DNA of 59,728 bases from a virus (lineage: Duplodnaviria; Caudoviricetes), in IMG/VR virus record IMGVR_UViG_3300009104_000024, positions 1 through 59,728 of that record. One strand, written 5' to 3'. A program made the position numbers and the translations under genes. The notes beneath the pieces were generated by a model that was given only the letters and a program-made list of their open reading frames with translations, was not told where the DNA came from and did not search any database. Position 1 is the first letter of the stretch. Each line of letters starts with the position of its first letter. Shown here piece after piece: positions 231 to 59,395 of the stretch.

Positions 231-1727
231 ATGAATAAAAAAGTTCTTAGTAAGGTAAAGAATTTATCTCCTGTTCAGAAACAAGAGTTATTGTCTTTAC
301 TTGAAGAATTAGAACAAGCCAAGAATAGAGAGAAATGCCACGATGATTTTATGACCTTTGTTGGGGAGATGTGGTCAGCTTTTATTCATGGTAAACACCA
401 CGAAATAATGGCTGATGCGTTTGAGAGGGTCGCTAAAGGCGATTTAAAGCGTTTAATCATCAATATGCCTCCTAGACACACTAAGAGTGAGTTTGCTTCT
501 TATTTGCTTCCTGCGTGGTTTCTAGGTAAATACCCAGATAAGAAGATAATTCAGACTGCTCACACGGCTGAATTAGCTGTAGGCTTTGGTAGGAAGGTTA
601 GAAACCTAGTAAATAGCAAAGATTATAAAGAAGTCTTTCCAGATGTTAGCTTACAATCTGATAGCAAAGCAGCAGGTAGGTGGAATACAAACAAAGGTGG
701 CGAATACTTTGCGATAGGTGTGGGTGGTGCAGTAACTGGTAAAGGTGCTGACCTCCTAATCATTGATGACCCACATTCAGAACAAGAAGGTGCAAGTGCC
801 GACATAAACGTATTCAATAGAACATACGAGTGGTACACATCAGGTCCAAGACAGCGTTTGCAACCAAATGGTTCTATCGTTGTGGTAATGACAAGGTGGC
901 ACAATAAAGATTTAACTGGTCAGGTAGTAGATGCCAGCATAAAACGTGGTGGTGCTGACCAATGGGAAGTAATAGAACTTCCTGCCATTATGCCTTCAGG
1001 TAATCCTTTGTGGGCAGAATTTTGGAAAATGGAAGAATTACAGGCTTTGAAAGCCGAGCTACCCAATAGTAAGTGGATGGCTCAATACCAGCAAGACCCT
1101 ACTTCAGAAGAAGGAGCGTTGGTTAAAAGAGAATGGTGGCAGGTTTGGCAAGGCAGAGAGCCACCTCAATGCGAGTTTGTTATCCAATCTTGGGATACGG
1201 CTTTTATGAAGAATCAAAGAGCTGACTATTCTGCTTGCACTACCTGGGGTGTCTTCTATAGAGAAGATGATGACGGAATGCTAGCACCTAACCTTATACT
1301 GTTAGATGCCTATAAAGAGCGTTTAGAGTTTCCAGATTTAAAGAAAATGGCTTTTGAGAAGTACAATGCTTATAAGCCTGATGCGTTCATTGTGGAAGCA
1401 AAAGCAGCAGGTATGCCTTTAATCTTTGAATTAAGGGCAATAGGAATACCAGTACAAGAATACACTCCTAGCAGAGGAAATGATAAGATATCAAGGGTAA
1501 ACGCTGTATCTGATTTATTTGCTTCAGGTGTAGTTTGGGCTCCAGAAACACGCTGGGCAGAAGAAACAATAGAAGAGTTTGCTGGATTTCCAAATATGGA
1601 ACATGACGATTTAGTTGATAGCACCACGCAAGCTCTGTTAAGATTCAGACAAGGTGGTTTTATTTCATTGCATTCTGACGAAGAAGATGAGCCTTTGGAA
1701 CATAACCGAATTGCAAATTATTATTAA
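231..1727 (+). CDS. terL: Terminase large subunit
   Basis: Walker A-like PPRHTKS, Walker B LLIIDD, coupling motif MTRW, C-terminal RNase H-like nuclease (SWDTA...HDDLVD). Confidence 0.95.
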   Translation: MNKKVLSKVKNLSPVQKQELLSLLEELEQAKNREKCHDDFMTFVGEMWSAFIHGKHHEIMADAFERVAKGDLKRLIINMPPRHTKSEFASYLLPAWFLGKYPDKKIIQTAHTAELAVGFGRKVRNLVNSKDYKEVFPDVSLQSDSKAAGRWNTNKGGEYFAIGVGGAVTGKGADLLIIDDPHSEQEGASADINVFNRTYEWYTSGPRQRLQPNGSIVVVMTRWHNKDLTGQVVDASIKRGGADQWEVIELPAIMPSGNPLWAEFWKMEELQALKAELPNSKWMAQYQQDPTSEEGALVKREWWQVWQGREPPQCEFVIQSWDTAFMKNQRADYSACTTWGVFYREDDDGMLAPNLILLDAYKERLEFPDLKKMAFEKYNAYKPDAFIVEAKAAGMPLIFELRAIGIPVQEYTPSRGNDKISRVNAVSDLFASGVVWAPETRWAEETIEEFAGFPNMEHDDLVDSTTQALLRFRQGGFISLHSDEEDEPLEHNRIANYY

Positions 1728-38800: not shown

Positions 38801-41800
38801 ATACCTAATCCTAGTGGTCAAACTTTACAAGAACAAGGTGTTACTTTTTTAAGAAATCAGGAATTTAATAACTTTACTGTTCCTATAAATAGGTTAGGAG
38901 AAATTGCACCTTTACATAGAGATAGTGCCCAAACTAAAGATAAATTAGATTATGCAGTAGAGATTGCTAGTCAGCCTGACTTACTTGCACCCTCTGGAAA
39001 TATACCTTTATTTTCTAGGCAATCTAAAACACCTTCAATAAAAGAACTTCCTGGAGAAGTTTCTGAGTATCGTGATAATTACAATATAACAGATACAGAA
39101 TTACTAAATGCTATAGAAGCTACAGAAATGAGCAGAAAATCAGGAACAAGAGAAAATCCTGGTCAGTTAGATACTACTATAGTAGAAATATTTGAAAACA
39201 ATCCCAACCTTTTAGAAGCTAGTAAAAACTTTCTTAGAAAGTTTACTAATAAAAAAGGTAACTTAATTGTATACAGAGCTTTAAATATACCTGCCTCTAT
39301 GCGTATAAAAAACTATGGGCAGTTTCCTCAAGATATTTACGCAAGTGCAACTATAGACCATAGAGAAGCTAAACAAATAGCAAGTAGTGTAGAAATAAGG
39401 TCAAGAGCTAAAGAAGAAGCACAATCAGAAATACTTAGATTTGAAGTGCCAATGGATAGAGTAAAAGCTTATGTTCCATCTTTAATAGTGGCTGGTAGAG
39501 AGCGATTAATAGAGATGAAAGAACAAGAATTTATTGATGCAGGGATAGAAAGTGAAATGGATGAAGACTTTAATCCTGATGAATATAATGACTACACTAG
39601 AGAACAATACATAGAAGAATATGAAAATGATTTAGATGCTTCTATAGATGAAGCTGAAGTTTTAGTTGACTTACGAGGAATCAAACCAACTTATCAGTAC
39701 ACACCTGGTAGTGGTATAACAGGTAGAGAACCATCTATAACTAGAGATATACCTTTATTCTCAAGAGCCAGAAGATTTACAGGTGAAGCTAATACACAAG
39801 AAAAAGTAGCATTACAAAAGTCTACAGAAATAATTGAAGATTTTGTAAAGAAAACTCCTAGAGGTGAAATACCTTTATACAATACAAATGCCTCTGATGT
39901 TGCTTTAAAAGCTGCGTATGACTATATAAATGACCCTAGTGCTCCTACTATAAATGAACTTCCTAATTACTCTAGAGTTGAAAAAGAAATACCTGAAGAT
40001 TTACAAGGTGTAGTTAATAGAGGTGGGTATGTTGCTCCAAGGAAGCCTTGGTATGAAAGATTAATTAGTGATGTTTCTGACCCTGTAACTAATATTAGAA
40101 AGTTTTTTAAAGATACAAGACAAAACTATATTGATAAGTTAGATAAAGTAGAAAAGAAAATAGCACAAGGAAGTGAAGAGTTTGAAGAAGTAAGACTTTT
40201 AAATAATATAGCCGACACCTCTGCTATAGCTGCATTAAGAATGGCTGATAAAGCTAGAGGTATATTTCAAGGTATGCTTACAAGAGGATTTGCTACAGAT
40301 GTTATTGACGGAGAAGCTGCATTAACAACTACTGAAGAACTAGAAATAGATACAGTATATAACCCATACATTGATGGCGATACAGGTACTGGTGGTTTAT
40401 TACAAATTACTGCTCCTTTATTTTCTGACCCATTAGTAGATTTAGAAGGAATATTTGGAACATATGCCAAATTAAAAAGAGTTCAAGGATTTCAAAAACA
40501 AAATAGACAAGTTGAATCCCCTTTTACACAACAAGATTTAGAATTTATAAATAATATTGAAGCTAACTATCAAGTTGTTGTTGAGGTATATAACAACTAT
40601 CAAAAATGGAACAATAAATTAGTAGACTTTGCACAAGCTAAAGGCTTATTAAATGAAGCACAAGCTACAAAATGGAGAGAAGAATCAACTTACTATCCTT
40701 TTTATAGAGATATGGTTGAAGAAGAGGGTATAACTGCACCAAGAATAGGTGGTGGTTCTTTACCTAATAACCCATTAAATTTAAAACTTAAAGGTTCTGA
40801 AGCAGAAATAAATGTTTCTCCATTAGAAGCTATAGCAAGAAACTCTTTGTCTATTCTTACTGCTTCCATGAAAAATGACGGAGCAACAAAGTTAATAGAA
40901 AGTTTAGCAATTATGGGTGAAGCAGAATACATCACCCCACAACAATTAAAAAATAAACAAGGTGCAAAAACTATATTTGTTTTTGAAAATGGATTTAAAA
41001 AACACTACAACATAGAAGACCCTGATTTATTCCATAGTATCAGAGCATTAGGTGGAGCAGAAGTTGGATTTATAACTAAACTTTTAGCTATGCCAGCTAC
41101 GTTATTAAGAGATACAGTAACTCGTGACCCTGGATTTATAGCAGTAAACTTACTTAGAGATACGCTATCTGCAACTGTAACATCAGGTGTTAATTTATCA
41201 TCACCTTTTACAGGTGGTGATGGATTTGTGCCAATGATAGATACCATTAAAAATATGTTTGGCGACATGACAGACTTAGAAAAGTTTGGTGTTATTGGTG
41301 GATATGATTTCGCTAATGACGAAGGTGATGTTGTTGACTATATGGCACGAATAAGAAGACAACAAGGTCTTACGGCTAACAATGGTATGTCAGCAGAAAA
41401 AGCTTTCTTTTATGTTTGGGATGGTCTTGGTGGACTAACAACAAAATCTGATGGAGCTACTCGTAAAGGTGTGTTTGATGCAGTTTATAAACGCATGAAA
41501 AACACTATTGATGAAAGAACAGGTGAAGTTTACACAGATGCAGCAGCACAATCAGAAGCAGCTTTTCAATCCTTAGAGGTTATAAACTTTGGTCGTAGAG
41601 GACTATCACCAATGTTTAGAGTTATTACGTCTGCAATACCTTTTTTAAACGCTAGAATACAAGGTCTTGACGTTATATACAGGTCATTTAGAGGAACGTA
41701 TTCAGCACAAGATAAACTACAAGAAGGTGAAACTTTAGATGAATTAAAGAACAGAATAATGCGAAGAACTGCATTGAGAGGTGGAACTATTATGGCTTCT

Positions 41801-42781
41801 ACCTTAATTTACTATCTATTAGTTAGTGATACAGAAGAATACAAGGAAGCCAAGAGAGAACTAAGAGATGACAATTGGTTGATACCAACTCCATTTGATT
41901 ACACATTAAAAGTTCCTATTCCTTTTGAGATTGGAATGATGTTTAAGGCACTACCTGAGAGGTTCATAGACCTCGTTCTAGGAGAGAAAGTGTTAGGACT
42001 AAAGGAATCAGTAGAGAAAGACCCTATCGAGTCTATAAGGAGGCAATTAGGAACTTCTGCAAACATACCTTTCTTATCAGGTGACATCAGCATACAAGCA
42101 TTAAAGCCTATTTTTGAAGCTACAATTAATAGAAATTCTTTTACAGGTCAAGAAATTGTTCCTTACTATAAGCTGAAGAGAGAGCCAGGTTATCAAGCAT
42201 CTCCACAAACTAATGAACTAGCTAGAGTTATCGGTGAAGCCTTAAATATTTCACCAACTAAAATTGAGCACGTTATCAATGGATATACAGGAACACTCGG
42301 AGGTTATGTGTTGGATATTGTGGATTCACTAACTAGAACTGCAACAGGTTCTCCATACATACCAAATAATATTTTTAGTAACCCAACTAACTTTGCCCAA
42401 TACCCATTAATTAAAAGACTGGTCGTGGATAATAAAAAAATGGGAGGGTTGCAACAACAGTTCTATGAACTTAGAGGTGAGGTAGATAGAGCCGTTACGA
42501 CTATGAATAGTCTTAAACAAGAAAAAAGGTTTGATGAACTCAGAGCTTATAAGTCTGATGTAAAAGGCTTAATGAATGTCAAAGGCAGAGTAAGAGCAAT
42601 GGAAAGATACTTGGACAATTGGAGGAAGAGAAGAGATAGATTGATGCGTAGGACTGATATATCGGTTATGGTTAAAGCAGAAATGATTCAAGACTTAGAA
42701 GCAGAAAGAGATAAGCGTTTAGCGTTTATACCTGAACTAAGGAAGAAAGCTAACGTGCCTATCCTCCAGGGAGGACTGTAA
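32831..42781 (+). CDS. Large polyvalent protein (ejected): two zincin motifs, ART-like and ParB-like modules, LPD38-like C-terminus
   Basis: HEMIH (35360) and HELVH (36497); HEGRHR; VYRAL..SAT..EAEV; repeated PLFSR linkers; domain names inferred by eye. Confidence 0.75.
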   Translation: MQKVNLPDGRTLKIPNDLSAEKRDELANAVKAEYNIDINEGSLGEWLIDKPKSVVRGLSQMIPTGVKGIAGLTLGSDSDIVKGISDYQRYIATESPLASDPKYRDTFGTKLSEGAGSLIGFGGLSYAGRRLAAKGVLSDKAGRFGVPGSLAVPMGMGEQVDRLEQSRALGEESPGFLAEKTAILAGGVIGLSELAPLERLFRGIPKNALKNPTVQQLLNTRLRSAIATGTAEAIQEAGAGVLQNLTAAGLYSDEIPIFDSALEEFTIGGILGASADLLVNSLANRRSISSQQLRDAETKARDNRTSLQSQDKFARAQEQGMVEEYQEPIIKEKPEIDVPAIVDVAPPDLGVIENPDGQFSVVDYNDLENPILSSHATEVDALLEKNNQQTNYERKVLQVQVDNDTYMMGMPDSDSAKTLGRTVLDPNITQINLSTLIGYDSSISEDLKKELNKEKSATYPAQPYRQMLENKRKNLEKTAKYLESKGLDLKSSFSMPEAKKVLKPKDYNLMLESFANHAFTASEKAGEPSIREDKLDVTIKNIKAIAESKNIELDFKDPAVRYAAKQWTGFEDIPKTRNRGAKELFLARIHSLPAFNSKTKFPDFRPRAYTGVDMANFVASAQDIQFTDADLLVAGPESIRNKPENVKQFLNDLIESGRAKKIKNTNKYELTDDFEYTVARRQEGFNETPDEFRARLERDRSLGKNKLSDEAIDSLVASEEVRQEKVLPPKEIEKKLIDFNETIEEGRTNKFAKELRKKLNKVGLRDTGIVVSNDILSTTTLAETETGQIIFDPRKTRETATEGAVEGEYDRDTDIIFLSLNSVNPDGTATDEQILQRLDKILDHEMIHAFRKKDLITEKEYQYLRNEVKRKKVPTEYDASSKNETFYTRSQRINSGMVRQATSEGRAKEEIEEFLVEEAIAEMYRAREFKPVTPKSKGILNRIVEFFKSMGQAMRVSGYRDSSEIFADIERGKVGARERGQIRTLQELDKISMAREQGIVGGLGITPSAVPEEPRGEDKLDTSDPQSIADEWGEGVLITPTVSFNDVKSDTDPITGVTLPLEARQRGGLYNKWELTPEEYEADRKQILDEFYRPTGIGDGIENIKSIEVLKWLSKNGPTEDYRVIANRLLVQQRKLKRIVGIEGYFAIFNDEHGGKQRFIGKGTDYQSFLGVSYAPFLNDGSYNVKDYNPYGDSKLVQQVYLKDTSYTSSPGHNGVSFDTMLHELVHQTTQAATNFYRGSRATEQSKKLVKDLEEVRKELIKEIEKRTDTKGSIVEGQYVNEDAENKLKSEFGQDGAAKIVYAASKIQETLAVGFTNRYAQDFMDSIPYKGTKKTLWDKFTESIRKLLSLPAKTNSLFSEFLRISGKLTNLSNAQLEELNRVGADYDYGPPVASLEMSDPSIESELSDLRRELYDAESLESADRGYVDVEVGNRNMRRVQNIRNKIERLEEQLKREAELKQPVTPEQLPLFSRTQKDEKKIRTIARENRKRLKEEYKNDPDAVDEIIKEFEGEELFSDGSGFIEGITTNRGYMDDIPLSFSSERLSKKVLEDYGYEEIFEGEMSSELRDKDNQQNYYVDLGQNKFRVYFNRYGNKRNQATITNPTLDELMNESWFEKERRSSDIPLFSRGPRDESSGHLADYVPAEYGPPAHQLDIVYGDEKTKDGYYPVSYGFTYPKTSPDYRTREFTVYSTARTPLEQQEEREFINKLMEIRGNPNAEITMYQAAPQRDLREGDLITPFLSEAEALVEDSKVTQQEIREADRARRRQEQIDKKGAVDLQQERLFNQMEGISDILGRPEVTPSTIHTFKLKAGDVRWDGNNGWARWGYFPRIKAVEDLPLFSRAATDTKPPYMDFNRKQIRNFSSNKVGFYDGVEIPLTHVARMRVEDFLKLTTANQEVIDNIITGGPTVALSSEPMGLLPASIRNPDAIFDSEIADTAIIPSLPNLEIRGNGQVISHEGRHRVALIGQGGGRTVPVFINFPEGNVEQNIPNPSGQTLQEQGVTFLRNQEFNNFTVPINRLGEIAPLHRDSAQTKDKLDYAVEIASQPDLLAPSGNIPLFSRQSKTPSIKELPGEVSEYRDNYNITDTELLNAIEATEMSRKSGTRENPGQLDTTIVEIFENNPNLLEASKNFLRKFTNKKGNLIVYRALNIPASMRIKNYGQFPQDIYASATIDHREAKQIASSVEIRSRAKEEAQSEILRFEVPMDRVKAYVPSLIVAGRERLIEMKEQEFIDAGIESEMDEDFNPDEYNDYTREQYIEEYENDLDASIDEAEVLVDLRGIKPTYQYTPGSGITGREPSITRDIPLFSRARRFTGEANTQEKVALQKSTEIIEDFVKKTPRGEIPLYNTNASDVALKAAYDYINDPSAPTINELPNYSRVEKEIPEDLQGVVNRGGYVAPRKPWYERLISDVSDPVTNIRKFFKDTRQNYIDKLDKVEKKIAQGSEEFEEVRLLNNIADTSAIAALRMADKARGIFQGMLTRGFATDVIDGEAALTTTEELEIDTVYNPYIDGDTGTGGLLQITAPLFSDPLVDLEGIFGTYAKLKRVQGFQKQNRQVESPFTQQDLEFINNIEANYQVVVEVYNNYQKWNNKLVDFAQAKGLLNEAQATKWREESTYYPFYRDMVEEEGITAPRIGGGSLPNNPLNLKLKGSEAEINVSPLEAIARNSLSILTASMKNDGATKLIESLAIMGEAEYITPQQLKNKQGAKTIFVFENGFKKHYNIEDPDLFHSIRALGGAEVGFITKLLAMPATLLRDTVTRDPGFIAVNLLRDTLSATVTSGVNLSSPFTGGDGFVPMIDTIKNMFGDMTDLEKFGVIGGYDFANDEGDVVDYMARIRRQQGLTANNGMSAEKAFFYVWDGLGGLTTKSDGATRKGVFDAVYKRMKNTIDERTGEVYTDAAAQSEAAFQSLEVINFGRRGLSPMFRVITSAIPFLNARIQGLDVIYRSFRGTYSAQDKLQEGETLDELKNRIMRRTALRGGTIMASTLIYYLLVSDTEEYKEAKRELRDDNWLIPTPFDYTLKVPIPFEIGMMFKALPERFIDLVLGEKVLGLKESVEKDPIESIRRQLGTSANIPFLSGDISIQALKPIFEATINRNSFTGQEIVPYYKLKREPGYQASPQTNELARVIGEALNISPTKIEHVINGYTGTLGGYVLDIVDSLTRTATGSPYIPNNIFSNPTNFAQYPLIKRLVVDNKKMGGLQQQFYELRGEVDRAVTTMNSLKQEKRFDELRAYKSDVKGLMNVKGRVRAMERYLDNWRKRRDRLMRRTDISVMVKAEMIQDLEAERDKRLAFIPELRKKANVPILQGGL

Positions 42782-52732: not shown

Positions 52733-52973
52733 CACTCCTTGGAAATGCTTGTATGTCGTCAGGTTCAATATCACAACCTGATATACCAAATTCATGACAA
52801 AGTTCGTAATATGGGTCTCGACAAGTTGCAAAAATATCAGCTTGTCTTTCCCAGTCAAAATTTTCTTCTGCTACGTTTAAAGCCTCATTAAGTTCACTTG
52901 CCTCAACAACTTGTGTGAAGATAGCATTATCTTTGTTGGTTTTTATAACCAACCATTCTGTTTTATTACTCAT
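52719..52973 (-). CDS. Hypothetical acidic protein
   Basis: GGAGG RBS. Confidence 0.75.
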   Translation of the reverse strand: MSNKTEWLVIKTNKDNAIFTQVVEASELNEALNVAEENFDWERQADIFATCRDPYYELCHEFGISGCDIEPDDIQAFPRSDDDE

Positions 52974-53004: not shown

Positions 53005-53066
53005 AAAACTAATTTCGACCCTTTTGGGTCATCATCAGGGAAAATACACATTTTCCGATTAGTTTT
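53005..53066 (-). ncRNA. Type III hammerhead ribozyme (extra U after A9)
   Basis: AAAACUAAUC^GGAAAA-UGUGUA-UUUUCC-CUGAUGA-U-GACCC-AAAA-GGGUC-GAAA-UUAGUUUU. Confidence 0.88.
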
Positions 53067-53161: not shown

Positions 53162-54412
53162 CTATGCTACGAGACTATTCTTATCCACATAAATAACTTC
53201 ACCAAAAGGTAAATTATTAGAATAAGAACTTTCCTCCGTAACGCACCATATAACAGGAACTTCAGGCTGAACGTCAGCATCAACCAATCCGAATCCGTCT
53301 GTAAAATAAACGAATGCTTTTACATCCTGGACTTCATCCGAATAATCATTGAAGAGATTAAAAGGAGGATTAAATTCTGTTCCTCCTCCTCCTCTAGCTT
53401 CAAGTTTTACCTCTTCGCCCTGGTCAAGTTCATACACATCCCACCATTCACCATTAGAATTTTTTCTTACGACTGTATCGCAATAACAAACTCTAATTTT
53501 TTCTAAACCACACGATTCAGCCATTGAAATAATTTCAGTAGTGAATATGTTTAGTTCGTCTTGGTCAATTGAACAAGATGTATCTATGGCTATAGCTAAC
53601 TCACCTCCCTGGGAAGATTTAACTTTACTAGGTAAATATAAATTTCTCCAGGTATGACGTTTATTAGGTCTCGCCCACGTTCTATCGTCAGCCATAGAAC
53701 TTGAAAGAAAATCGCTTAACAGTTCATGCCAGTTAAAATTGATTTCCTGTAATTCTTGCATTCTGCGACCTATCGCAGAGCCTGAATCACTTCCTATAGA
53801 TTTCTCCAGTTTGTCAGCTTTAGATACTGCATTCCTGATTTCAGTTTGAAGATCAGACAATTCTGAATCACCTAAAGGTTTTCCTTCTTCGTCTTGAGCC
53901 TGTATGACTTCACCTACTGGCACAGGAAGTTCATCCCATTCAGTAGAGGAAACGTCTATCCCCTCACCTTCATGTCCTGTAATATCATCTACAGTATCTT
54001 GTAAAGAATCATCATCTTCTGCCAAAATTTGATACACCTTTTCAGCAGTCATACCTCTATATTTATTATCAAGTAAACCACCTTCAGGTAATTTCATTCC
54101 TAAATCCCACCTAAGATAAGCATTAATTATATAGTCAGTTGCGTAATTCCATAGAACGTGATGCCTACTACTTCCTTTTCGCAAGGGATGTTCCCATATG
54201 ACGTGGCTAGCTTCGTGAACTAAGACTGCTTGTAATTCCTTAACAGAAATACTTTTGACAAAATCTTTATTCCAAAAAATTCTTTGTCCGTCAGTAGCTA
54301 ACGTATCAAAAGAAGCATCTTCAACCAGTTCTAAGTTGAGCAACATTGAAGCCATACCAATATTACCCTTCATTAGTTTTGCTCTAGCTTTTATAAGTTT
54401 TTGTTCAGTCAT
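53162..54412 (-). CDS. VWA domain protein with N-terminal metallopeptidase (DUF2201-like)
   Basis: ATDG, HEASH, WNYATD; MIDAS-like DTSCS, GGGGT, YFTDG; GGAGG RBS before ATG 54412. Confidence 0.88.
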   Translation of the reverse strand: MTEQKLIKARAKLMKGNIGMASMLLNLELVEDASFDTLATDGQRIFWNKDFVKSISVKELQAVLVHEASHVIWEHPLRKGSSRHHVLWNYATDYIINAYLRWDLGMKLPEGGLLDNKYRGMTAEKVYQILAEDDDSLQDTVDDITGHEGEGIDVSSTEWDELPVPVGEVIQAQDEEGKPLGDSELSDLQTEIRNAVSKADKLEKSIGSDSGSAIGRRMQELQEINFNWHELLSDFLSSSMADDRTWARPNKRHTWRNLYLPSKVKSSQGGELAIAIDTSCSIDQDELNIFTTEIISMAESCGLEKIRVCYCDTVVRKNSNGEWWDVYELDQGEEVKLEARGGGGTEFNPPFNLFNDYSDEVQDVKAFVYFTDGFGLVDADVQPEVPVIWCVTEESSYSNNLPFGEVIYVDKNSLVA

Positions 54413-55358
54413 CTTTACCTCCAAAAGCCTTATTAAAGAAACTTCCTTTAAGGTCTCCTACAGAACTTTCTAAATCATCTGCAACCTTCTTTCGTTTAGC
54501 TTCTCCCAATTCAGTTTCATCTCTAAGAGAATCATAAGAATTGATTGAGGCAAAAACAGAAACAAGACTTTGATGAGCATTAGATATGTCTGCATCATTC
54601 CCTAAAATGTCAGAGTTAATTGAGGGAAGCATATCAATAGACTGTTTTAATTTCTCAAAACTGGTCTTATGAAATGTTTCACCATTCTTTAACTTATCGA
54701 CAATATGATTTACTTGTTCAAGTAAAGCCTCAACAGTAACCTTAAAAACATTTCTTACATTGTTTGCAAGTCTGTTTTCAGTCTCTTGTTGAATGCTAGC
54801 TTTCATTTTGTCAGAGACATTTAAACGAATATCAGAAGATTTAGTTATGTCCTGAATTAGTTCTTTCTTAAAATCAAAAACAAATTTGCTTCTAAGTTTT
54901 TCAACGTCAGGATAATCTTCTTCATTAAATGCAGAGCCTAATTTTCTTTCAGCTACAGAAACAAAAGAATCATAATTTTCAAGAAAACTTTCTGCTTCCT
55001 CAAAAAAATCATCTTTAGCTTCTTGCATTTTCTCGTCTAGCAAATCTAATTGTGTACTTGGACACAATCTCCACCCACTAGTGCTAGTTGAATCAGAATC
55101 CGATTCACTATCGCTCCAGGGAACAGTTAAAGCATAATAGTATTCTCTACGAATCCTATTCGTTATACGTCTGAATATCTTATTAATATTCTCTCCGTAC
55201 ATATGCTTAGAAACGTGCAATGTTCTTTCATCTGCACCTACGTTACTTTCTAACCCTTCTCGTAAACTTTTATCTACCTTAATACCACTAGGATGTTTAA
55301 CAGTTAAACTAACCAGTAATGCTTGTTTAGATAAAAGGTTTTTATTATTTTTATTCAT
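54405..55358 (-). CDS. Helical hypothetical protein (DUF3150-like)
   Basis: GGAGG RBS; between ATPase and VWA genes; family call inferred. Confidence 0.6.
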   Translation of the reverse strand: MNKNNKNLLSKQALLVSLTVKHPSGIKVDKSLREGLESNVGADERTLHVSKHMYGENINKIFRRITNRIRREYYYALTVPWSDSESDSDSTSTSGWRLCPSTQLDLLDEKMQEAKDDFFEEAESFLENYDSFVSVAERKLGSAFNEEDYPDVEKLRSKFVFDFKKELIQDITKSSDIRLNVSDKMKASIQQETENRLANNVRNVFKVTVEALLEQVNHIVDKLKNGETFHKTSFEKLKQSIDMLPSINSDILGNDADISNAHQSLVSVFASINSYDSLRDETELGEAKRKKVADDLESSVGDLKGSFFNKAFGGKDD

Positions 55359-55385
55359 AAACCCTCCAGTCTATATTATTAATAA

Positions 55386-55448
55386 TCTGTTTCGCATGAC
55401 CCATAAATGAACAGGTCGCTCTTCAGTATGGTTAATTCCATATACAGA
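55386..55448 (-). ncRNA. Type III hammerhead ribozyme (canonical core)
   Basis: UCUGUA^UAUGG-AAUUAA-CCAUA-CUGAAGA-GCGACC...GGUC(AU)GC-GAAA-CAGA. Confidence 0.9.
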
Positions 55449-55475
55449 AAAAAACGGAGGGCATTTCTGCCCTCC
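55448..55475 (-). terminator. Intrinsic terminator abutting hammerhead
   Basis: GGAGGGCA-GAAA-UGCCCUCC-G-U7. Confidence 0.8.
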
Positions 55476-55481
55476 ATAATT

Positions 55482-56570
55482 TTATACCTCTAAGTCTTGA
55501 TGCTTAACTTTGAACTCATTGAAAGTTGTTGTTTCAACAAGTTCAGTTCTTGCATTGATTAGAGAACGAACAAAAAATACTTCGTATTCAGGAGTTGGAA
55601 ATTGCTCTATATATTTCAGAGCATTTTCAAAATAACTTTCAACCAAAGAATCGCTAACTTCTTTAATTACAGTTATCAGCGCAACGACTGTAGCAAAATA
55701 TATTCCGTTCTGTTTTTTCTTATCCTTAGCCTTTTCAGGAGAATCAATTTTCCCCTCACAAATTTTTTGCAAGTCAGGAACATCTTCTTTGAGTTGCAAG
55801 AAAGATGCAAATTCAATTGATGCAGTTTCGCCTACATTAATGTCTGCGAATTTCTGTATAAATGAATTTTCAGGATTAGTCTTTAAAGTGCTAGACAATC
55901 TTGTCCAGGAACGAGGGCAAGGCTGAGGAGCAATGACTTTAGGATCAAAAACATTCAACCAGTTAGGCTGATAATTTAAGAATCCTAAAATGTCAGGATG
56001 AACATCATTCTTGACTGCCCAATTGAACCAGTCGTTAGAATCGTGAACGAACTCAATCATTGCACACCTGGAATAGCAATGAGAAGGAATCTTATTAGAC
56101 CCCGCCCTATCGCTAGCCTTATTGGAAGCACAAACAATTACCCAATTACCTTTTCCATTTTCAGGAGTTGGTAATTCATAATCTCCTATTCTTTTCTCAT
56201 ACATAAGTTGAGATAGAACAGTTTGCATTGAATGGTGAGACTGCCCAAATTCATCCAGGAAAAGCATACCTTCTCCACTAACAGGAAGATTACCTAAAAA
56301 GGCTCTCTTCTGTTTGCCTTCCTCAATATAAGGAATGCCTGATAGGTCATAAGACTCATACAAACTACTTCTAAAATCTATCCAACCATATTCTTTTGCA
56401 GTTGGATTGACTTTATCTGTAACCACTTTTCTTCCTTCAGCCAAGATGTCTCGCACCTCTTCGACTATTGCAGACTTTCCAATACCAGTTCCTCCTAAAA
56501 GGAATGGCGTATTGTTAGCCTTTATTTCGCATTGCATCATATACAACGCTTCACTAGGTTTATATTTCAT
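55482..56570 (-). CDS. MoxR-like AAA+ ATPase
   Basis: GGTGIGKS Walker A, LFLDE Walker B, ASN sensor, PRSW. Confidence 0.9.
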   Translation of the reverse strand: MKYKPSEALYMMQCEIKANNTPFLLGGTGIGKSAIVEEVRDILAEGRKVVTDKVNPTAKEYGWIDFRSSLYESYDLSGIPYIEEGKQKRAFLGNLPVSGEGMLFLDEFGQSHHSMQTVLSQLMYEKRIGDYELPTPENGKGNWVIVCASNKASDRAGSNKIPSHCYSRCAMIEFVHDSNDWFNWAVKNDVHPDILGFLNYQPNWLNVFDPKVIAPQPCPRSWTRLSSTLKTNPENSFIQKFADINVGETASIEFASFLQLKEDVPDLQKICEGKIDSPEKAKDKKKQNGIYFATVVALITVIKEVSDSLVESYFENALKYIEQFPTPEYEVFFVRSLINARTELVETTTFNEFKVKHQDLEV

Positions 56571-57978: not shown

Positions 57979-58238
57979 ATTTCCCTCGCTTCTAGTTCTT
58001 CCATAAATTCCCAATCTTCATCATACAACTGATTAATTCTTTCATAATCAACTATGAATTTATGAAGTGTTATTGTTCTGTTATAACCATCTACAATGGT
58101 ATTGCCTTCCTCTCCACTAGGTTTAAAAATCCCAGTATCTAAAAAGTTATTCACATAGTATCTGCCTACACTTCCCTCTAACTGTAAAAATAATCCACTA
58201 TTAACATTTTCTAAATGATTTTCATAAAACTCACTCAT
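57975..58238 (-). CDS. Hypothetical acidic protein
   Basis: GAGGG RBS, ATGA coupling; flanked by 20-bp direct repeats. Confidence 0.7.
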   Translation of the reverse strand: MSEFYENHLENVNSGLFLQLEGSVGRYYVNNFLDTGIFKPSGEEGNTIVDGYNRTITLHKFIVDYERINQLYDEDWEFMEELEAREI

Positions 58239-58468
58239 ATTTCCCTCGCTTCTATTTCATCCTCATCTTTTTTAGAGACAAGAAAATCAGATTCAACAAG
58301 TTGCTCAAGAATATCTTCAGGCATTTCTGCTAGAACCCTTGTAACCTCATTAATCATAAAAGCATAAAGACTATAATCCAAGTCTCTAAATCTTGCACAA
58401 AGTCTGTAATGCAATAAATCCAATGGGGATAATTTTATACTTATAGTTTTCGTTTTTTCTTTATTCAT
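58235..58468 (-). CDS. Hypothetical protein, first gene of leftward operon
   Basis: GGAGG RBS before ATG 58468 (MNKEKTK); the longer GTG extension runs through the ribozyme. Confidence 0.7.
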   Translation of the reverse strand: MNKEKTKTISIKLSPLDLLHYRLCARFRDLDYSLYAFMINEVTRVLAEMPEDILEQLVESDFLVSKKDEDEIEAREI

Positions 58469-58474
58469 AATATA

Positions 58475-58633
58475 GACCCTCCAGTCTGTTTCGTTTTTAA
58501 AATTGGCTAGAGGCAATAAACTTAGATTTGTCTTAACAATGCACGTTTTATATTCGTAGGCATTGACCACATAAATTTATTACCTCACTCATTCAGCTAA
58601 CAGAAGCCACCTGTTAGGACATTGGAGGATGTC
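58475..58633 (-). ncRNA. Extended type III hammerhead-like ribozyme (CUGAAUGA core) sequestering an RBS
   Basis: UGUC^CUAACAG-GUGGCUU-CUGUUAG-CUGAAUGA-GU...15-bp stem...AC-GAAA-CA; CCUCCA pairs with UGGAGG. Confidence 0.72.
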
Positions 58634-58906
58634 ACTACTGTCCGATTATCGTTAACGCCTCCCCAACTTAGATTGTGTTGGTTCTTTGGGTACGCATTTT
58701 GTTTTGAAGCTTTACTTCTATCTTCGTGGGTAATTCTTGAGACCCTCATCTTCAGTTAAGCCCTGTCACGACCTGAAGCACTATCTTGTTCTACTCTATA
58801 AAACCTCCATTGGTTTAATTGAATATTTAATAATACAGGAACACACCATAATAGCTAGCATAATGTGAGCATTACATAACCAGGGAAAAAGGAACATAAT
58901 GCAAGC

Positions 58907-59395
58907 ATGAAGGAAAATAAAAAAACCAGTCTCAAAATTGTTGGGAAGGAAGACGACCTAACAATTAAACAAAGAAAATTCGTTGATGCAATTGTTAAAG
59001 GGACTTACCCCACATATAAAGAAGCCTACTTCAATAGCTATGATGTTAAGCCTAACAAGAATGGAAGCATACCTAAATGGGTAGAAGTAGAAGCCAGTAG
59101 ACTACTTAGCACTAACCCTAAGATAACCCAAAGTATCAGGAAGGCATTAGAGAGGAAGGAGGATCATGCAGTTGCTTCAAGCATACGGACAAGGAGTTAC
59201 GTTCTTGAGAGACTATATAAAGAATCTACTGAAGCAGATACGTCAGCATCTAAAATTAGAGCATTAGAGCTGTTAGGCAAAAGTGTGGCATTGTTTAGTG
59301 ATGTAGTAGAGACAAAAGAAGCACGAGCAAGCACGGACATAGAAGCAGATATAGAGGAAAAGATTAATACCCTGTTAGATAGCCAGGAAGATTAA
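58907..59395 (+). CDS. terS: Terminase small subunit
   Basis: LTIKQRKFV N-terminal HTH, ASRLL, IRALELLGK; precedes terL across the window junction. Confidence 0.8.
   Translation: MKENKKTSLKIVGKEDDLTIKQRKFVDAIVKGTYPTYKEAYFNSYDVKPNKNGSIPKWVEVEASRLLSTNPKITQSIRKALERKEDHAVASSIRTRSYVLERLYKESTEADTSASKIRALELLGKSVALFSDVVETKEARASTDIEADIEEKINTLLDSQED

What the first reader, a model, noticed from the sequence alone, without database searches (positions are those of the whole stretch)
58475..58633. Hammerhead whose stem III hides the Shine-Dalgarno: cleavage-activated translation switch
Seen: the 5' strand GAC-AU-CCUCCA-AUGUC pairs with ACA-GAC-UGGAGG-GUC, which contains the SD of the gene at 58468. Cleavage after GUC puts the anti-SD strand on the departing 5' product. 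The core has an extra nucleotide (CUGAAUGA), stem II is very long, and loop I UGGCU is complementary to AGCCA in a stem II bulge, giving a pseudoknot in place of the usual loop I-II contact. Inference: self-cleavage could act as a timer or switch that turns on translation of the first gene.
Basis: partly seen in the sequence, partly recalled or inferred. Interest (0 to 1): 0.88.

Follow-up and report, generated by a model that had tools for sequence, protein, structure and literature searches.

The report
Phage hammerhead ribozyme that masks its ribosome site
A marine phage carries a genuine self-cleaving hammerhead RNA just ahead of its first early gene, built so that the ribosome-binding site is paired inside the ribozyme and the masking strand is cut away on cleavage, which offers a concrete, testable job for phage hammerheads.

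Summary
On the minus strand, 58633..58475 is a type III hammerhead. It has GUC (cut after C58618), stem I, core CUGAAUGA, a 2-bp stem II carrying a 77-nt inserted hairpin, GAAA, and a stem III whose 3' strand holds the SD (GGAGG 58482-58478) of the ORF starting at 58468.

Rfam finds nothing here. Relatives give the support:
- 34 distinct close variants show compensatory changes in stem I, in the loop I/AGCCA pseudoknot and in the insert.
- A second clade, in phages whose terminase small subunit is about 63% identical, keeps anti-SD / cut site / core / SD in the same order.
- The extra core base is a polymorphism at N7: U 40, A 23, C 4 and AU 19 of 86 variants.

Two covarying hairpins are new. 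P0 is the 5' strand folded on itself, pairing the cut-site C and showing the anti-SD in its loop. P4 shows the SD in a loop. Both exclude stem III, so the RNA has two folds.

An energy model of the window's RNA gives SD unpaired at 0.02 or less before cleavage and about 0.99 in the 3' product. Cleavage-activated translation is plausible but unproven. In 28 of 67 variants the model does not predict masking. The window holds two more hammerheads.

The parts
58634..58800 (-). Conserved structured leader RNA upstream of the ribozyme. Its 5' limit is uncertain. It would be released, with the anti-SD, as the 5' cleavage product.
   Evidence: RNAalifold on 35 relatives: 21 predicted pairs, 14 with compensatory changes. 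G-U pairs occur on this strand only. The alignment is shown. No sigma-70-like promoter was found on this strand.
58619..58633 (-). 5' strand of stem III, carrying the anti-SD CCUCCA (58628-58623). Together with C58618 it can also fold alone as hairpin P0 (G58633-C58618 to U58629-A58622), with the anti-SD in the loop.
   Evidence: Sequence. Twelve distinct P0 types keep the hairpin. At the two variable stem positions 23 of 24 cells are paired, and 0 of 10000 shuffles reached that.
58618..58618 (-). Cleavage-site nucleotide C17 of the GUC triplet. The predicted scissile bond lies between 58618 and 58617.
   Evidence: Position relative to stem I and the core. GUC is invariant in all 34 close variants.
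58597..58617 (-). Stem I hairpin (7 bp) with loop I GUGGCUU. UGGCU (58609-58605) is the 5' half of the pseudoknot.
   Evidence: 3 of 7 stem I pairs have changes on both sides (C-G/G-C/U-A, A-U/C-G/U-A, G-C/C-G/A-U) and 100% of cells are paired.
58589..58596 (-). Core strand CUGAAUGA: the consensus CUGANGA with two bases (AU) at position N7.
   Evidence: Among 86 distinct variants N7 is U in 40, A in 23, C in 4 and AU in 19. Single-base deletions at 58593 or 58591 appear in contigs of public runs.
58493..58588 (-). Stem II. It has a 2-bp base (G58588-C58493, U58587-A58494), a 77-nt inserted hairpin (58586-58510), and a single-stranded stretch that holds the pseudoknot partner.
   Evidence: The insert is absent, about 24-26 nt, or about 77-82 nt in relatives. 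4 of the 15 pairs of its basal helix changed on both sides.
58504..58508 (-). AGCCA, the 3' half of the pseudoknot with loop I.
   Evidence: The G-C pair becomes A-U in 6 of 34 variants (UGGC/GCCA to UGAC/GUCA) and U-A becomes G-U in 1. The motif AGCCAAA aligns with the type II hammerhead consensus of Rfam in relative L015.
58489..58492 (-). Core GAAA (G12 A13 A14 A15.1).
   Evidence: Invariant in all variants.
58475..58488 (-). 3' strand of stem III, containing the Shine-Dalgarno GGAGG (58482-58478). With U58474 it can also fold alone as hairpin P4 (AGACU 58487-58483 with GGUCU 58478-58474, loop GGAG).
   Evidence: Sequence. Energy model. An SD-in-loop hairpin is found in 39 of 42 distinct 3' tails, against 18.7 +/- 3.2 with shuffled flanks and 27 of 62 at the window's GGAG..ATG sites.
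58235..58468 (-). First ORF of the minus-strand operon (77 aa, no family match). Its start codon lies 9 nt after the SD.
   Evidence: No Pfam or PHROGs match. Relatives in 6 viral contigs.
55386..55448 (-). Second hammerhead (HH2). Predicted cut after A55443, core CUGAAGA. It sits between a terminator-like hairpin and the DUF3150-like gene (ATG 55358).
   Evidence: Own model R1, E = 0.0064. Descriptor hit. Stem I covaries in relatives: UAUGG/CCAUA, UAGGG/CCCUA, UCUGG/CCAGA.
53005..53066 (-). Third hammerhead (HH3), with a canonical core CUGAUGA. Predicted cut after C53057, upstream of the ORF starting at 52973.
   Evidence: Descriptor hit with stems of 7, 5 and 9 bp. All three stems covary in relatives.

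Best explanation
This is a real type III hammerhead self-cleaving ribozyme in the 5' untranslated region of the first minus-strand gene of an uncultured marine tailed phage. Loop I and a single-stranded part of stem II form a pseudoknot that holds stems I and II together.

Stem III is built from an anti-SD segment that lies 5' of the cut site and the gene's own Shine-Dalgarno segment that lies 3' of the ribozyme.

The RNA has two mutually exclusive folds:
- Open fold: the 5' strand forms hairpin P0, which pairs the cut-site C and shows the anti-SD in its loop. The SD sits in the loop of a small hairpin P4. The ribozyme is off.
- Closed fold: anti-SD and SD pair, stem III forms, the SD is masked and the ribozyme is on.

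Cleavage after C58618 turns stem III from an intramolecular into an intermolecular helix. The leader, carrying the anti-SD, refolds into P0 and leaves. The mRNA keeps a 5'-OH end, the folded ribozyme body and a permanently unmasked SD.

Shown: the anatomy, the covariation, the two alternative hairpins, the conservation of the layout and the energy estimates.
Inferred: that the RNA cleaves in vivo, that the 5' product leaves, and that translation rises as a result.

The confidence of 0.5 is for the whole statement, including cleavage-activated translation. That it is a genuine hammerhead I put at about 0.95.
For: Hammerhead identity:
- All core elements are present.
- On 34 distinct relatives 98.1% of cells pair, 10 of 53 pairs have changes on both sides, and 0 of 500 shuffles reach the score. 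Slid controls pair only 37-44% of cells.
- The pseudoknot pair G-C becomes A-U in 6 variants.
- Short-stem-II relative L015 scores 30.3 bits on Rfam Hammerhead_II (cut-off 37), with AGCCAAA aligned to the consensus.
- Own model R1 finds diverged copies at the same place upstream of the terminase small subunit gene in more distant phages, E from 7e-8 to 0.3.

SD coupling:
- 67 distinct variants in two clades keep CUCC/CCUC just 5' of GUC and GGAG 3' of GAAAC.
- With a descriptor that does not ask for an SD, 63 of 63 distinct hammerheads in these phages have GGAG/GAGG within 40 nt after GAAA. 52 of 63 then have a start codon 4-13 nt on, and 46 of 63 have the anti-SD.
- The cassette precedes 28 different N-terminal decapeptides in clade A, so it is kept while the gene behind it changes.

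Two folds:
- P0: 12 distinct types, 23 of 24 variable cells paired, 0 of 10000 shuffles. The two variable 5' positions are a bulge in the hammerhead fold, so the ribozyme fold does not explain them.
- P4: 39 of 42 tails, against 18.7 +/- 3.2 in shuffles (maximum 27).

Energetics of the window's RNA:
- SD unpaired probability is 0.02 or less uncleaved at 37 C, and 0.99 for GGAG in the 3' product.
- Net binding of the 23-nt 5' tail is -8.8 kcal/mol at 37 C and -10.3 at 20 C.

The principle works: engineered ribozymes that mask the SD gave 5-fold and about 100-fold more reporter when active than when dead (PMC5052635, passages read).
Against: - No cleavage, RNA ends or translation were observed.
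- Rfam's hammerhead models do not hit the window at gathering score, or at E up to 10.
- The window's own core has an extra base. An insertion after A6 was reported to give low activity (PMC3088659, passage read), so this copy may be slow.
- In 28 of 67 variants at 37 C (29 at 20 C), nearly all in the second clade, the energy model does not give 'masked before, open after'. The SD is already 0.14-0.89 unpaired in the uncleaved RNA. The model ignores tertiary contacts.
- The SD:anti-SD helix cannot show covariation, because the SD is fixed by the ribosome.
- Stem III pair 16.3-15.3 was a filter of my collection, and pair 16.4-15.4 holds in only 12 of 20 strand combinations.
- HH2, HH3 and the 'clade C' hammerheads sit before an SD without any anti-SD. 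Masking is therefore not needed for whatever hammerheads do in these phages.
- No promoter was found on this strand, so the length of the 5' product is unknown.
Confidence: 0.5

Rival explanations
1. The hammerhead is real, but its job is plain 5'-end processing. It trims a variable, structured leader off the early mRNA. This gives a defined 5'-OH end capped by the folded ribozyme, which insulates and stabilises the message. The same happens at HH2 and HH3, which cut the operon into gene-length pieces. The SD lies in stem III only because the ribozyme abuts the ribosome site and a G+C-rich helix is convenient in an A+T-rich genome.
For: - There are three hammerheads on the same strand of the window, each just before an SD.
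- 63 of 63 descriptor hits in the related phages are followed by an SD, but 17 of 63 lack an anti-SD.
- Clustered hammerheads that flank phage genes were described and read as transcript processing (PMC3088659, section 6 read). The 2019 review repeats this as the leading idea (PMC6765202, passage read).
- In 28 of 67 variants the model predicts little masking.
Against: - It does not explain why a perfect 6-nt complement of the SD is kept in the loop of a covarying hairpin in all 12 5'-strand types.
- It does not explain why the SD itself sits in a covarying hairpin loop.
- For the window's clade the model predicts near-complete masking.
Confidence: 0.25
2. The ribozyme's main product is the leader, not the mRNA. 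Cleavage releases a structured small RNA of roughly 170 nt. Its 3' end is the blunt hairpin P0, closed by a 2',3'-cyclic phosphate, with CCUCCA in the loop. This RNA acts in trans on SD sequences of host or phage messages, or as a decoy of the 16S rRNA 3' end.
For: - The leader is a conserved RNA with several covarying hairpins: 14 of 21 predicted pairs are compensatory, with G-U pairs on this strand.
- P0 is conserved by covariation, ends exactly at the cut site, and shows the anti-SD in a 6-nt loop.
Against: - Part of the second clade has an unrelated leader in front of the same ribozyme, so the leader is not a constant partner.
- No target, expression data or known family supports it. Rfam has no match to the leader.
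- That C-rich loops of small RNAs bind SDs is recalled knowledge, not tested here.
Confidence: 0.12
3. The arrow runs the other way: translation controls cleavage. A 30S subunit bound to the SD holds the RNA in the open fold (P0 + P4) and blocks the ribozyme. Only untranslated messages cleave, so cleavage marks or retires idle mRNAs, or couples leader release to ribosome availability.
For: - The two folds are mutually exclusive, and the energy model puts them close to balance in the second clade.
- P4 presents the SD in the open fold.
Against: - In the window's clade the closed fold is strongly favoured.
- The anti-SD is transcribed about 150 nt before the SD, so stem III should form before a ribosome arrives (inference).
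- Cleavage leaves an intact, open mRNA, not an obviously doomed one.
Confidence: 0.08
4. The window's copy is an inactive or nearly inactive relic, because of the extra base in CUGAAUGA and the very short stem II. The structure then acts only as a static SD-masking leader.
For: - An insertion after A6 gave low activity in a tested natural hammerhead (PMC3088659, passage read).
- Rfam models miss the element.
Against: - CUGAAUGA recurs in 19 of 86 distinct variants, in all three clades.
- It coexists with CUGAUGA and CUGAAGA in single public runs, while every other core base stays invariant. That pattern fits a tolerated N7 variant rather than decay.
- Stem II of 1-2 bp is reported as common and active (PMC3088659, sections 6 and 7 read).
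Confidence: 0.05

Closest known systems
Type III hammerhead ribozymes (Rfam RF00008, clan CL00010)
   Same: Core CUGANGA...GAAA, a GUC cut site, three helices, and stem III open to the flanks.
   Different: - Loop I pairs with stem II in a Watson-Crick pseudoknot.
- N7 holds two bases.
- Stem II is 2 bp plus a 77-nt insert.
- Stem III is made of anti-SD and SD.
- Rfam's models do not reach threshold on it.
Pseudoknotted type II hammerheads of bacteria and metagenomes (Rfam RF02276; Perreault et al. 2011, PMC3088659)
   Same: The same pseudoknot logic, and nearly the same letters: loop I UGG(C) with AGCCAAA after stem II. Relative L015 aligns to the model at 30.3 bits. The paper reports pseudoknots in about 40% of hammerheads and shows them to be needed for fast cleavage.
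   Different: Circularly permuted. Here stem II is closed, with the AGCCA strand inside its loop, and stem III is open. The score is below the family cut-off of 37.
HHphage of haloviruses HF1/HF2 (Perreault et al. 2011)
   Same: A hammerhead with a core insertion, 13 nt upstream of the start codon of the first ORF of an early polycistronic transcript. The mapped 5' end lies within 3 nt of the cut site (passage read).
   Different: It is an archaeal virus. The passages I read describe no pairing of a ribosome site with the ribozyme, and no alternative hairpins.
Engineered SD-masking ribozyme switches (hammerhead aptazymes; twister platforms, Felletti et al. 2016, PMC5052635)
   Same: The SD is sequestered in a ribozyme stem, and cleavage frees it and raises translation. 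Active constructs gave 5-fold to about 100-fold more than dead ones in E. coli.
   Different: Those are man-made, usually with an aptamer. This one is natural, has no recognisable ligand pocket, and adds product-side hairpins (P0, P4).
RNase III processing of phage early mRNAs (T7, lambda); recalled from memory, not checked here
   Same: Cleavage in a 5' leader of an early phage message that changes its translation or stability.
   Different: That needs a host protein enzyme. Here the RNA would do it by itself.
glmS ribozyme
   Same: A self-cleaving ribozyme in a bacterial 5' UTR that sets expression of the downstream gene (PMC6765202).
   Different: It is metabolite-dependent, and cleavage lowers expression through decay of the 5'-OH product. 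The fold is unrelated.

Membership tests
Hammerhead ribozyme | Core strand C3-U4-G5-A6-N7-G8-A9 between stems I and II | tested here: inconclusive
   The window has CUGAAUGA, one base too many at N7. 67 of 86 distinct relatives have the exact 7-nt consensus and 19 have the 8-nt form. All other core letters are invariant.
Hammerhead ribozyme | G12-A13-A14 followed by the A15.1-U16.1 pair, with a non-G nucleotide (H17) at the cut site | tested here: met
   GAAA at 58492-58489, A58489 pairing with U58619, and C58618 as H17. Invariant in 34 of 34 variants.
Hammerhead ribozyme | Three helices around the core, supported by covariation | tested here: met
   - Stem I: 3 of 7 pairs are compensatory.
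- Stem II base: G-C in 23 and U-A in 24 of the aligned long and medium forms. Short forms use GAU/AUC or AU/AU.
- Stem III: invariant in the close clade. Across clades the proximal pairs change together (UGU/ACA, CAGU/ACUG, UAGU/ACUA, AAGU/ACUU, CUGU/ACAG). Pair 16.3-15.3 was a filter.
Hammerhead ribozyme | [quoted passage not shown] | tested here: met
   Pseudoknot UGGCU/AGCCA: 94.7% of cells paired, with G-C to A-U in 6 variants. The second clade has complementary loops AAUUAA / UAAUU instead.
Hammerhead ribozyme | Site-specific self-cleavage giving 2',3'-cyclic phosphate and 5'-OH ends | not testable with these tools
   Only assembled contigs of public runs were available. They cannot show RNA ends.
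Hammerhead ribozyme | Match to a curated Rfam hammerhead model at its gathering score | tested here: not met
   There is no hit on the window at gathering score or at E up to 10. HH2 and HH3 are not hit at E up to 5. The best relative reaches 30.3 bits against a cut-off of 37. This is a limit of the models, not a defining property of the class.
SD-sequestering translational switch (cis-acting 5' UTR element) | The SD is paired with a complementary upstream segment in the favoured fold | tested here: met
   For the window, SD unpaired probability is 0.02 or less at 37 C. The masked-then-open pattern holds for 39 of 67 variants and not for 28.
SD-sequestering translational switch (cis-acting 5' UTR element) | A second state with a free SD, and a trigger that moves the RNA between states | tested here: inconclusive
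   The alternative hairpins P0 and P4 are supported by covariation. The 3' product alone has GGAG 0.99 unpaired. That cleavage is the trigger is inferred.
SD-sequestering translational switch (cis-acting 5' UTR element) | A measured change in translation between the states | not testable with these tools
   This needs reporter or toeprint experiments.

The most novel reading that the evidence does not exclude
A natural, single-use, ribozyme-gated ribosome-binding site. A family of marine phages carries a portable cassette: P0 hairpin with an anti-SD loop, cut site, pseudoknotted hammerhead, and P4 hairpin with an SD loop. The cassette keeps an early message silent until the RNA cuts itself, with no host RNase and no ligand.

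The two loop-displayed complementary strands nucleate closing before cleavage and drive product release after it. The recurrent one-base length polymorphism at core position N7, and the 0 to 80-nt inserts in stem II, tune how long the delay lasts. The released leader, ending in a cyclic-phosphate-capped hairpin that shows CCUCCA, may in addition act in trans on other SD sequences.
Probability: 0.35. Interest if true: 0.85.

Novelty: new variant of a known kind. Interest (0 to 1): 0.74.

Why it matters
Thousands of hammerheads are known in bacteria and phages, but what they do there is still open. The 2019 review says that 'additional work is needed' and calls most genomically encoded ribozymes functional orphans (PMC6765202, passages read).

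This element gives a concrete mechanism that is conserved and easy to test: self-cleavage physically removes the strand that masks the ribosome-binding site. Synthetic biologists invented this design independently, and a natural version has not turned up in my searches of open-access papers and preprints (subscription journals and supplements were not seen).

The covarying alternative hairpins also show that selection acts on the non-catalytic fold. That is direct evidence for a regulated, or at least two-state, ribozyme rather than a constitutive cutter.

Practically, the family offers natural variants with different N7 and stem II lengths. These could serve as a ready-made series for testing how cleavage rate sets expression timing.

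Tried and rejected
**Rfam.** No family reached its gathering score on the whole window. At E up to 10 around the element there was only noise: Clostridium-PBP, MIR5998 and PK-IAV. At E up to 5 around HH2 and HH3 there were only snoRNA-like and other noise hits. I rejected 'no Rfam hit' as evidence against a hammerhead, because the clearly canonical HH3 is missed too.

**Type II architecture.** I considered this for the element, as Rfam's alignment of L015 suggests. I rejected it: the upstream 'GAAAC' it uses is not conserved (the window has GUUAAC), and the P0 5' arm is preceded by GUG/GCG/GGG, not GAA.

**Upstream GGGGAGG as anti-anti-SD.** I rejected the GGGGAGG at about 58664 for this role because it is not conserved: it reads GUUACUGAU or GGCGAG in relatives.

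**Coding readings.** The 50-aa ORF at 58597..58749 and the GTG-extended 111-aa ORF at 58235..58570 were rejected. Relatives carry 2-nt and 21-nt indels in the leader and lack the stem II insert.

**Phage databases and genomes.**
- blastn of the region against GenBank phages found no match.
- The genome-contig scan gave one hit, in a Kribbella contig, with no hammerhead around it.
- Four GC-rich viral loci (L092, L093, L107, L108) matched the 17-mer but gave no hammerhead parse, and I took them for chance matches. Five metagenome loci (L119, L132, L136, L141, L148) also gave no hammerhead parse and were dropped.
- I thought of an N4-like identity for the phage because of the 3316-aa ORF, but could not support it. 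Pfam sees only LPD38, and the best phage hits to the AAA protein are 26-27% identical.

**Public runs.**
- Only Logan contigs were served. Two RNA-library runs hold small shares of the sampled words (0.12 and 0.04).
- One RNA-library contig (X2 record 4, 58547-58669) bridges the cut site with more than 31 letters on each side.
- Others stop near it: X1 record 1 at 58625, X1 record 2 starts at 58603, and X3 record 8 and X4 record 17 start at 58618.
- Contigs cannot show RNA ends and DNA may be present in such libraries, so I draw no conclusion for or against cleavage.

**Alignments.**
- MAFFT misplaced gaps in the arms of the 12 P0 hairpins (A3). I therefore counted P0 pairs with my own end-anchored script instead of the count of structure pairs.
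- The model-made alignment A4 was not used for counts. It mixes HH1 with HH2-like hits and misses most of the second clade.

**Limits of my own collections.**
- The collection required GTC at the cut site, a stem I of 4 bp or more, GAAAC, a pair between 16.3 and 15.3, and GGAG within 35 nt. Those features are true by construction in the 86 variants.
- repeats the count without the SD and 16.3 filters, but with stem I of 5 bp or more. That drops most second-clade copies, which have a 4-bp stem I.
- The clade C rows (19 variants) were left out of the P0 and SD-masking counts because they have no anti-SD.

**Tools and files.** Supplementary files of papers were not opened. Dataset S1 and Figures S4-S7 of PMC3088659 may already contain members of this family or the A6a example.
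Full report
**What the window is.** The window is a complete IMG/VR virus record of 59,728 bases; CheckV rates it 100% complete and IMG/VR found no end repeats. On the plus strand lie a terminase small subunit gene (58907..59395; PHROGs phrog_51 at E = 2.4e-12; Pfam Terminase_2 below its cut-off), a large subunit gene (231..1727, Terminase_6C) and structural genes. From 58468 downward on the minus strand runs an operon of small ORFs of unknown function, followed by an AAA_5 ATPase, a DUF3150-like protein, a DUF2201 protein and a primase/helicase region. The finding lies in the 438-base divergent gap between the two. GenBank phages hold nothing similar at the DNA level. The host is unknown. All relatives come from marine viral or metagenome contigs.

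**The observation.** Read on the minus strand, the stretch 58633..58475 has every part of a type III hammerhead, in order:
- a 5' strand GAC-AU-CCUCCA-A-UGU;
- C58618 as the cut-site base of a GUC triplet;
- a 7-bp stem I with loop GUGGCUU;
- CUGAAUGA;
- a stem II of two pairs (G-C, U-A) enclosing a 77-nt hairpin and a single-stranded UAGCCAAUUUUAAAA;
- GAAA;
- a 3' strand CA-GAC-UGGAGG-GUC.

The start codon of the first ORF follows 9 nt after GGAGG. The minimum-energy fold is a three-way junction of this shape (z = -3.44; 1 of 200 shuffles as stable). It pairs GUC with GAC rather than leaving C17 free, as energy models usually do.

**Rfam.** Rfam finds no family in the window at gathering score and no hammerhead at E up to 10. 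This says little, because it also misses a fully canonical hammerhead elsewhere in the window.

**Relatives, clade A.** The 77-aa protein and the terminase small subunit brought in 86 loci. The exact 3' strand brought in more from viral and metagenome contigs. After removing loci that gave no hammerhead parse, there were 34 distinct versions of the element. They fall into three classes by stem II:
- short: CUGAUGA-U-GAU-AGCCAAAUA-AUC-GAAAC, or with only AU/AU as stem II;
- medium: a 24-26-nt hairpin inserted before AGCCA;
- long: 77-82 nt, as in the window.

The 'very long stem II' is therefore an insertion into the loop of a minimal stem II.

On the alignment, with the structure I wrote from the window's sequence:
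- 98.1% of cells are standard pairs, against 37-44% when partners are slid by 1-3 columns.
- 10 of 53 pairs changed on both sides, and 0 of 500 column shuffles reached the covariation score.
- Stem I has three compensatory positions out of seven.
- The pseudoknot has G-C replaced by A-U in six sequences (UGGC/GCCA to UGAC/GUCA) and U-A by G-U in one.
- The basal helix of the inserted hairpin has four compensatory pairs.
- Stem III does not vary in this set. The set was gathered with its 3' strand as the pattern, so this is uninformative.

The short relative L015 aligns to Rfam's type II hammerhead model at 30.3 bits (cut-off 37), with its AGCCAAA on the model's pseudoknot strand. The element looks like a circular permutation of the pseudoknotted type II hammerheads described by Perreault et al. 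2011 (PMC3088659; sections 6 and 7 read).

**Relatives, clades B and C.** A covariance model built from the 34 sequences found weaker matches at the same place, 350-500 bases upstream of the terminase gene on the opposite strand, in phages whose terminase small subunit is only about 63% identical (E from 7e-8 to 0.3).

Their sequences read GGGAC-UG-CUCCAA-CAGUC | CACG-AAUUAA-CGUG - CUGAUGA - GCAUCC-UAAUUAUG-GGAUGC - AA - GAAAC-UG-AC-UUGGAG-GUC ... AUG. This is the same architecture with different letters:
- The proximal stem III pairs change together (UGU/ACA, CAGU/ACUG, UAGU/ACUA, AAGU/ACUU, CUGU/ACAG).
- The tertiary contact is now two complementary loops (AAUUAA with UAAUU).
- The anti-SD (CUCCAA) again lies 5' of the cut, and the SD (UUGGAGG) again lies 3' of GAAAC.

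A purpose-written descriptor collected 86 distinct hammerheads from all loci: 34 of clade A, 33 of clade B, and 19 of a third group (clade C). Clade C lies further down the operons and has no anti-SD. That descriptor demanded a GGAG, so I repeated the count without it. Of 63 distinct hits (stem I of 5 bp or more), 63 had GGAG/GAGG within 40 nt after GAAA, 52 then had a start codon 4-13 nt on, and 46 had CUCC/CCUC in the 5' strand. In clade A the cassette is followed by 28 different N-terminal decapeptides: the cassette stays while the gene behind it is exchanged.

**The extra core base.** CUGAAUGA is not a private defect of the window. Among the 86 variants N7 is U in 40, A in 23, C in 4 and the dinucleotide AU in 19, spread over all three clades. 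Contigs of single public runs show the one-base deletions that turn it into CUGAUGA or CUGAAGA (table 4). Perreault et al. report a natural insertion after A6 with low activity (passage read). The window's copy may therefore be slow, but its recurrence argues against a dead copy.

First, the 5' strand can fold on itself as GACAU-CCUCCA-AUGUC. This is five pairs that include the cut-site C (G58633-C58618), with the anti-SD as the loop. I call it P0.
- RNAalifold predicted it on the leader alignment.
- Across the 67 variants with an anti-SD there are 12 distinct P0 sequences: GACAU/AUGUC, GACUG/CAGUC, GACUA/UAGUC, GACUU/AAGUC, GACUC/GAGUC, GACAC/GUGUC, GGCAGU/ACUGUC, GACUGA/UCAGUC and others.
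- At the two variable stem positions 23 of 24 cells pair, and none of 10,000 shuffles reached that.
- In the hammerhead fold those two 5' positions are a bulge, so the ribozyme fold does not explain their covariation. By contrast the hammerhead's own fourth stem III pair holds in only 12 of 20 strand combinations.
- The 5' arm of P0 copies the ribozyme's 15.1-15.4 strand but lacks G12-A13-A14. P0 is therefore a non-catalytic decoy for the substrate strand.

Second, the SD sits in the loop of a small hairpin, P4. In the window this is AGACU-GGAG-GGUCU. Elsewhere it is UAACC-UUGGAG-GGUUA, AAUAC-UUGGAG-GUAUU, UUAAUC-UAUGGAG-GAUUAA, CUAAC-UAAUGGAG-GUUAG and so on.
- 39 of 42 distinct 3' tails have such a hairpin, against 18.7 +/- 3.2 (maximum 27) when the flanks are shuffled, and 27 of 62 at the window's GGAG..ATG sites, a count that includes the two next to HH1 and HH2.
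- The search criterion is loose, hence the high background. The enrichment and the many different stems are still clear.

P0 and stem III exclude each other. In the window P4 and stem III overlap as well. The RNA therefore has an open fold (P0 + P4, ribozyme off, SD in a loop) and a closed fold (stem III, ribozyme on, SD paired).

**Energetics (ViennaRNA, no tertiary terms).**
- For the window's RNA the SD is 0.02 or less unpaired in the uncleaved transcript at 37 C (0.06-0.09 at 20 C with the long leader). GGAG is 0.98-1.00 unpaired in the 3' product.
- The 23-nt tail of the 5' product binds the 3' product with a net -8.8 kcal/mol at 37 C and -10.3 at 20 C, once both products' own hairpins are counted. 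By my rough estimate this means dissociation within seconds to minutes.
- Over all 67 variants, 39 at 37 C (38 at 20 C) go from below 0.1 to above 0.5 unpaired on cleavage. All 34 clade A variants do so at 37 C (33 at 20 C).
- In the other 28 (29 at 20 C), nearly all clade B, the model already gives 0.14-0.89 unpaired before cleavage, because P0 + P4 compete well with stem III.

This cuts both ways. It weakens 'the SD is always hidden', and it strengthens 'this is a balanced two-state RNA'.

**Most likely mechanism.** During transcription P0 forms first. When the SD emerges 75-160 nt later it meets the anti-SD displayed in the P0 loop, and stem III zips up. The pseudoknot docks stems I and II, and the RNA cuts after C58618. 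Stem III is now held between two molecules. Each strand has its own hairpin to fall back into, and the leader leaves with the anti-SD. The message then starts with a 5'-OH and the folded ribozyme body and has an open SD.

- Shown: the parts, their conservation and covariation, the alternative folds and the energy estimates.
- Inferred: activity, product release and the effect on translation.
- The design is known to work when engineered (PMC5052635, passages read).
- I put this reading at about 0.5.

The rivals are:
- plain end-processing and insulation (0.25), favoured by HH2, HH3 and clade C, which lack an anti-SD;
- biogenesis of a leader small RNA that ends in the P0 hairpin (0.12);
- ribosome occupancy controlling cleavage (0.08);
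- an inactive relic (0.05).

**Surroundings.**
- The leader (about 58800-58634) is itself a conserved RNA with several covarying hairpins: 14 of 21 predicted pairs are compensatory, with G-U pairs on the minus strand. It has no Rfam match. Part of clade B carries a different leader before the same ribozyme.
- The promoter scan found no sigma-70-like site on this strand, so the true 5' end is unknown.
- The window has two more hammerheads on the same strand. HH2 (55448..55386, cut after A55443) lies between a terminator-like hairpin and the DUF3150-like gene. HH3 (53066..53005, cut after C53057) lies before the ORF at 52973. Both have covariation in relatives.
- This matches the clustered phage hammerheads of Perreault et al..

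**Comparison with what is known, and novelty.**
- Already described: hammerheads with pseudoknots, with core insertions, in phage operons, and even one 13 nt before a start codon.
- In the text I could search, the following are not in print: a natural hammerhead whose stem III is the SD/anti-SD duplex, and the conserved product-side hairpins. I ran five full-text searches of open-access papers and preprints and read passages of PMC3088659, PMC5737381, PMC12192606 and PMC6765202. Subscription journals and supplements were not covered.
- The 2019 review states that the roles of bacterial hammerheads remain to be defined.

I file the element as a new variant of a known kind, with interest 0.74. 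It is a true hammerhead, ordinary in chemistry, but it gives an unusually clear and testable link between self-cleavage and translation initiation.

**Not available.** The public runs were served only as contigs, which cannot show RNA ends.

Noticed in passing
window 55386-55448 (-), with the hairpin at 55477-55455: A second hammerhead (HH2: CUGUA|, CUGAAGA, GAAACAG) directly follows a terminator-like hairpin GGAGGGCAGAAAUGCCCUCC plus a U-run. It precedes the SD of the DUF3150-like gene. N7 is A, G, C or U in relatives, and stem I covaries. The descending arm CCCUCC of the hairpin is complementary to the downstream SD GGAGGG.
   Followed up: partly
window 53005-53066 (-): A third, fully canonical hammerhead (HH3: AAAACUAAUC|, CUGAUGA-U-GACCC/GGGUC, GAAAUUAGUUUU). 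All three stems covary in relatives. Rfam misses it even at E up to 5.
   Followed up: partly
window 58634-58800 (-): A conserved structured leader RNA with no Rfam match. Its hairpins have covarying stems and strongly conserved loops (for example GUCGUGACAGGGCUUAA, CACAAGAAUU and AUAGAAGUAAAG), followed by a conserved single-stranded AAAACAAAAUGCGUACC. Its function is unknown. Some clade B phages have an unrelated leader instead.
   Followed up: partly
loci such as L002:2432-2526 and L015:940-1035 (clade C hammerheads): The internal hammerheads of related phages have a direct repeat of the substrate strand (AGAUAGUC ... AGAUAGUC|). Their 3' strand ACUAAC can pair either with the substrate (ribozyme on) or with GUUAG after the SD (hairpin with the SD in its loop). 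This is another two-state arrangement, without an anti-SD.
   Followed up: no
window 58545-58570 (-), inside the stem II insert: The long insert carries a second copy of the pseudoknot partner (UAGCCAAUGCC in most long variants; GGUCAAUGCC in the window, still able to pair with loop I through G-U pairs). It could compete with the true AGCCA for loop I.
   Followed up: no
window 58791-58815 (-): A nearly invariant motif AUAGGAGGUUUUAUAGAGUAG (the window reads AAUGGAGG...) lies just upstream of the leader in clade A relatives. It may be a phage-specific promoter or start region. The sigma-70 scan does not call it.
   Followed up: no
window 32831-42781 (+): A 3316-aa ORF whose only Pfam match is LPD38 near its C-terminus. 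The AAA_5 / DUF3150 / DUF2201 trio at 53162-56570 is flanked and split by the hammerheads.
   Followed up: no
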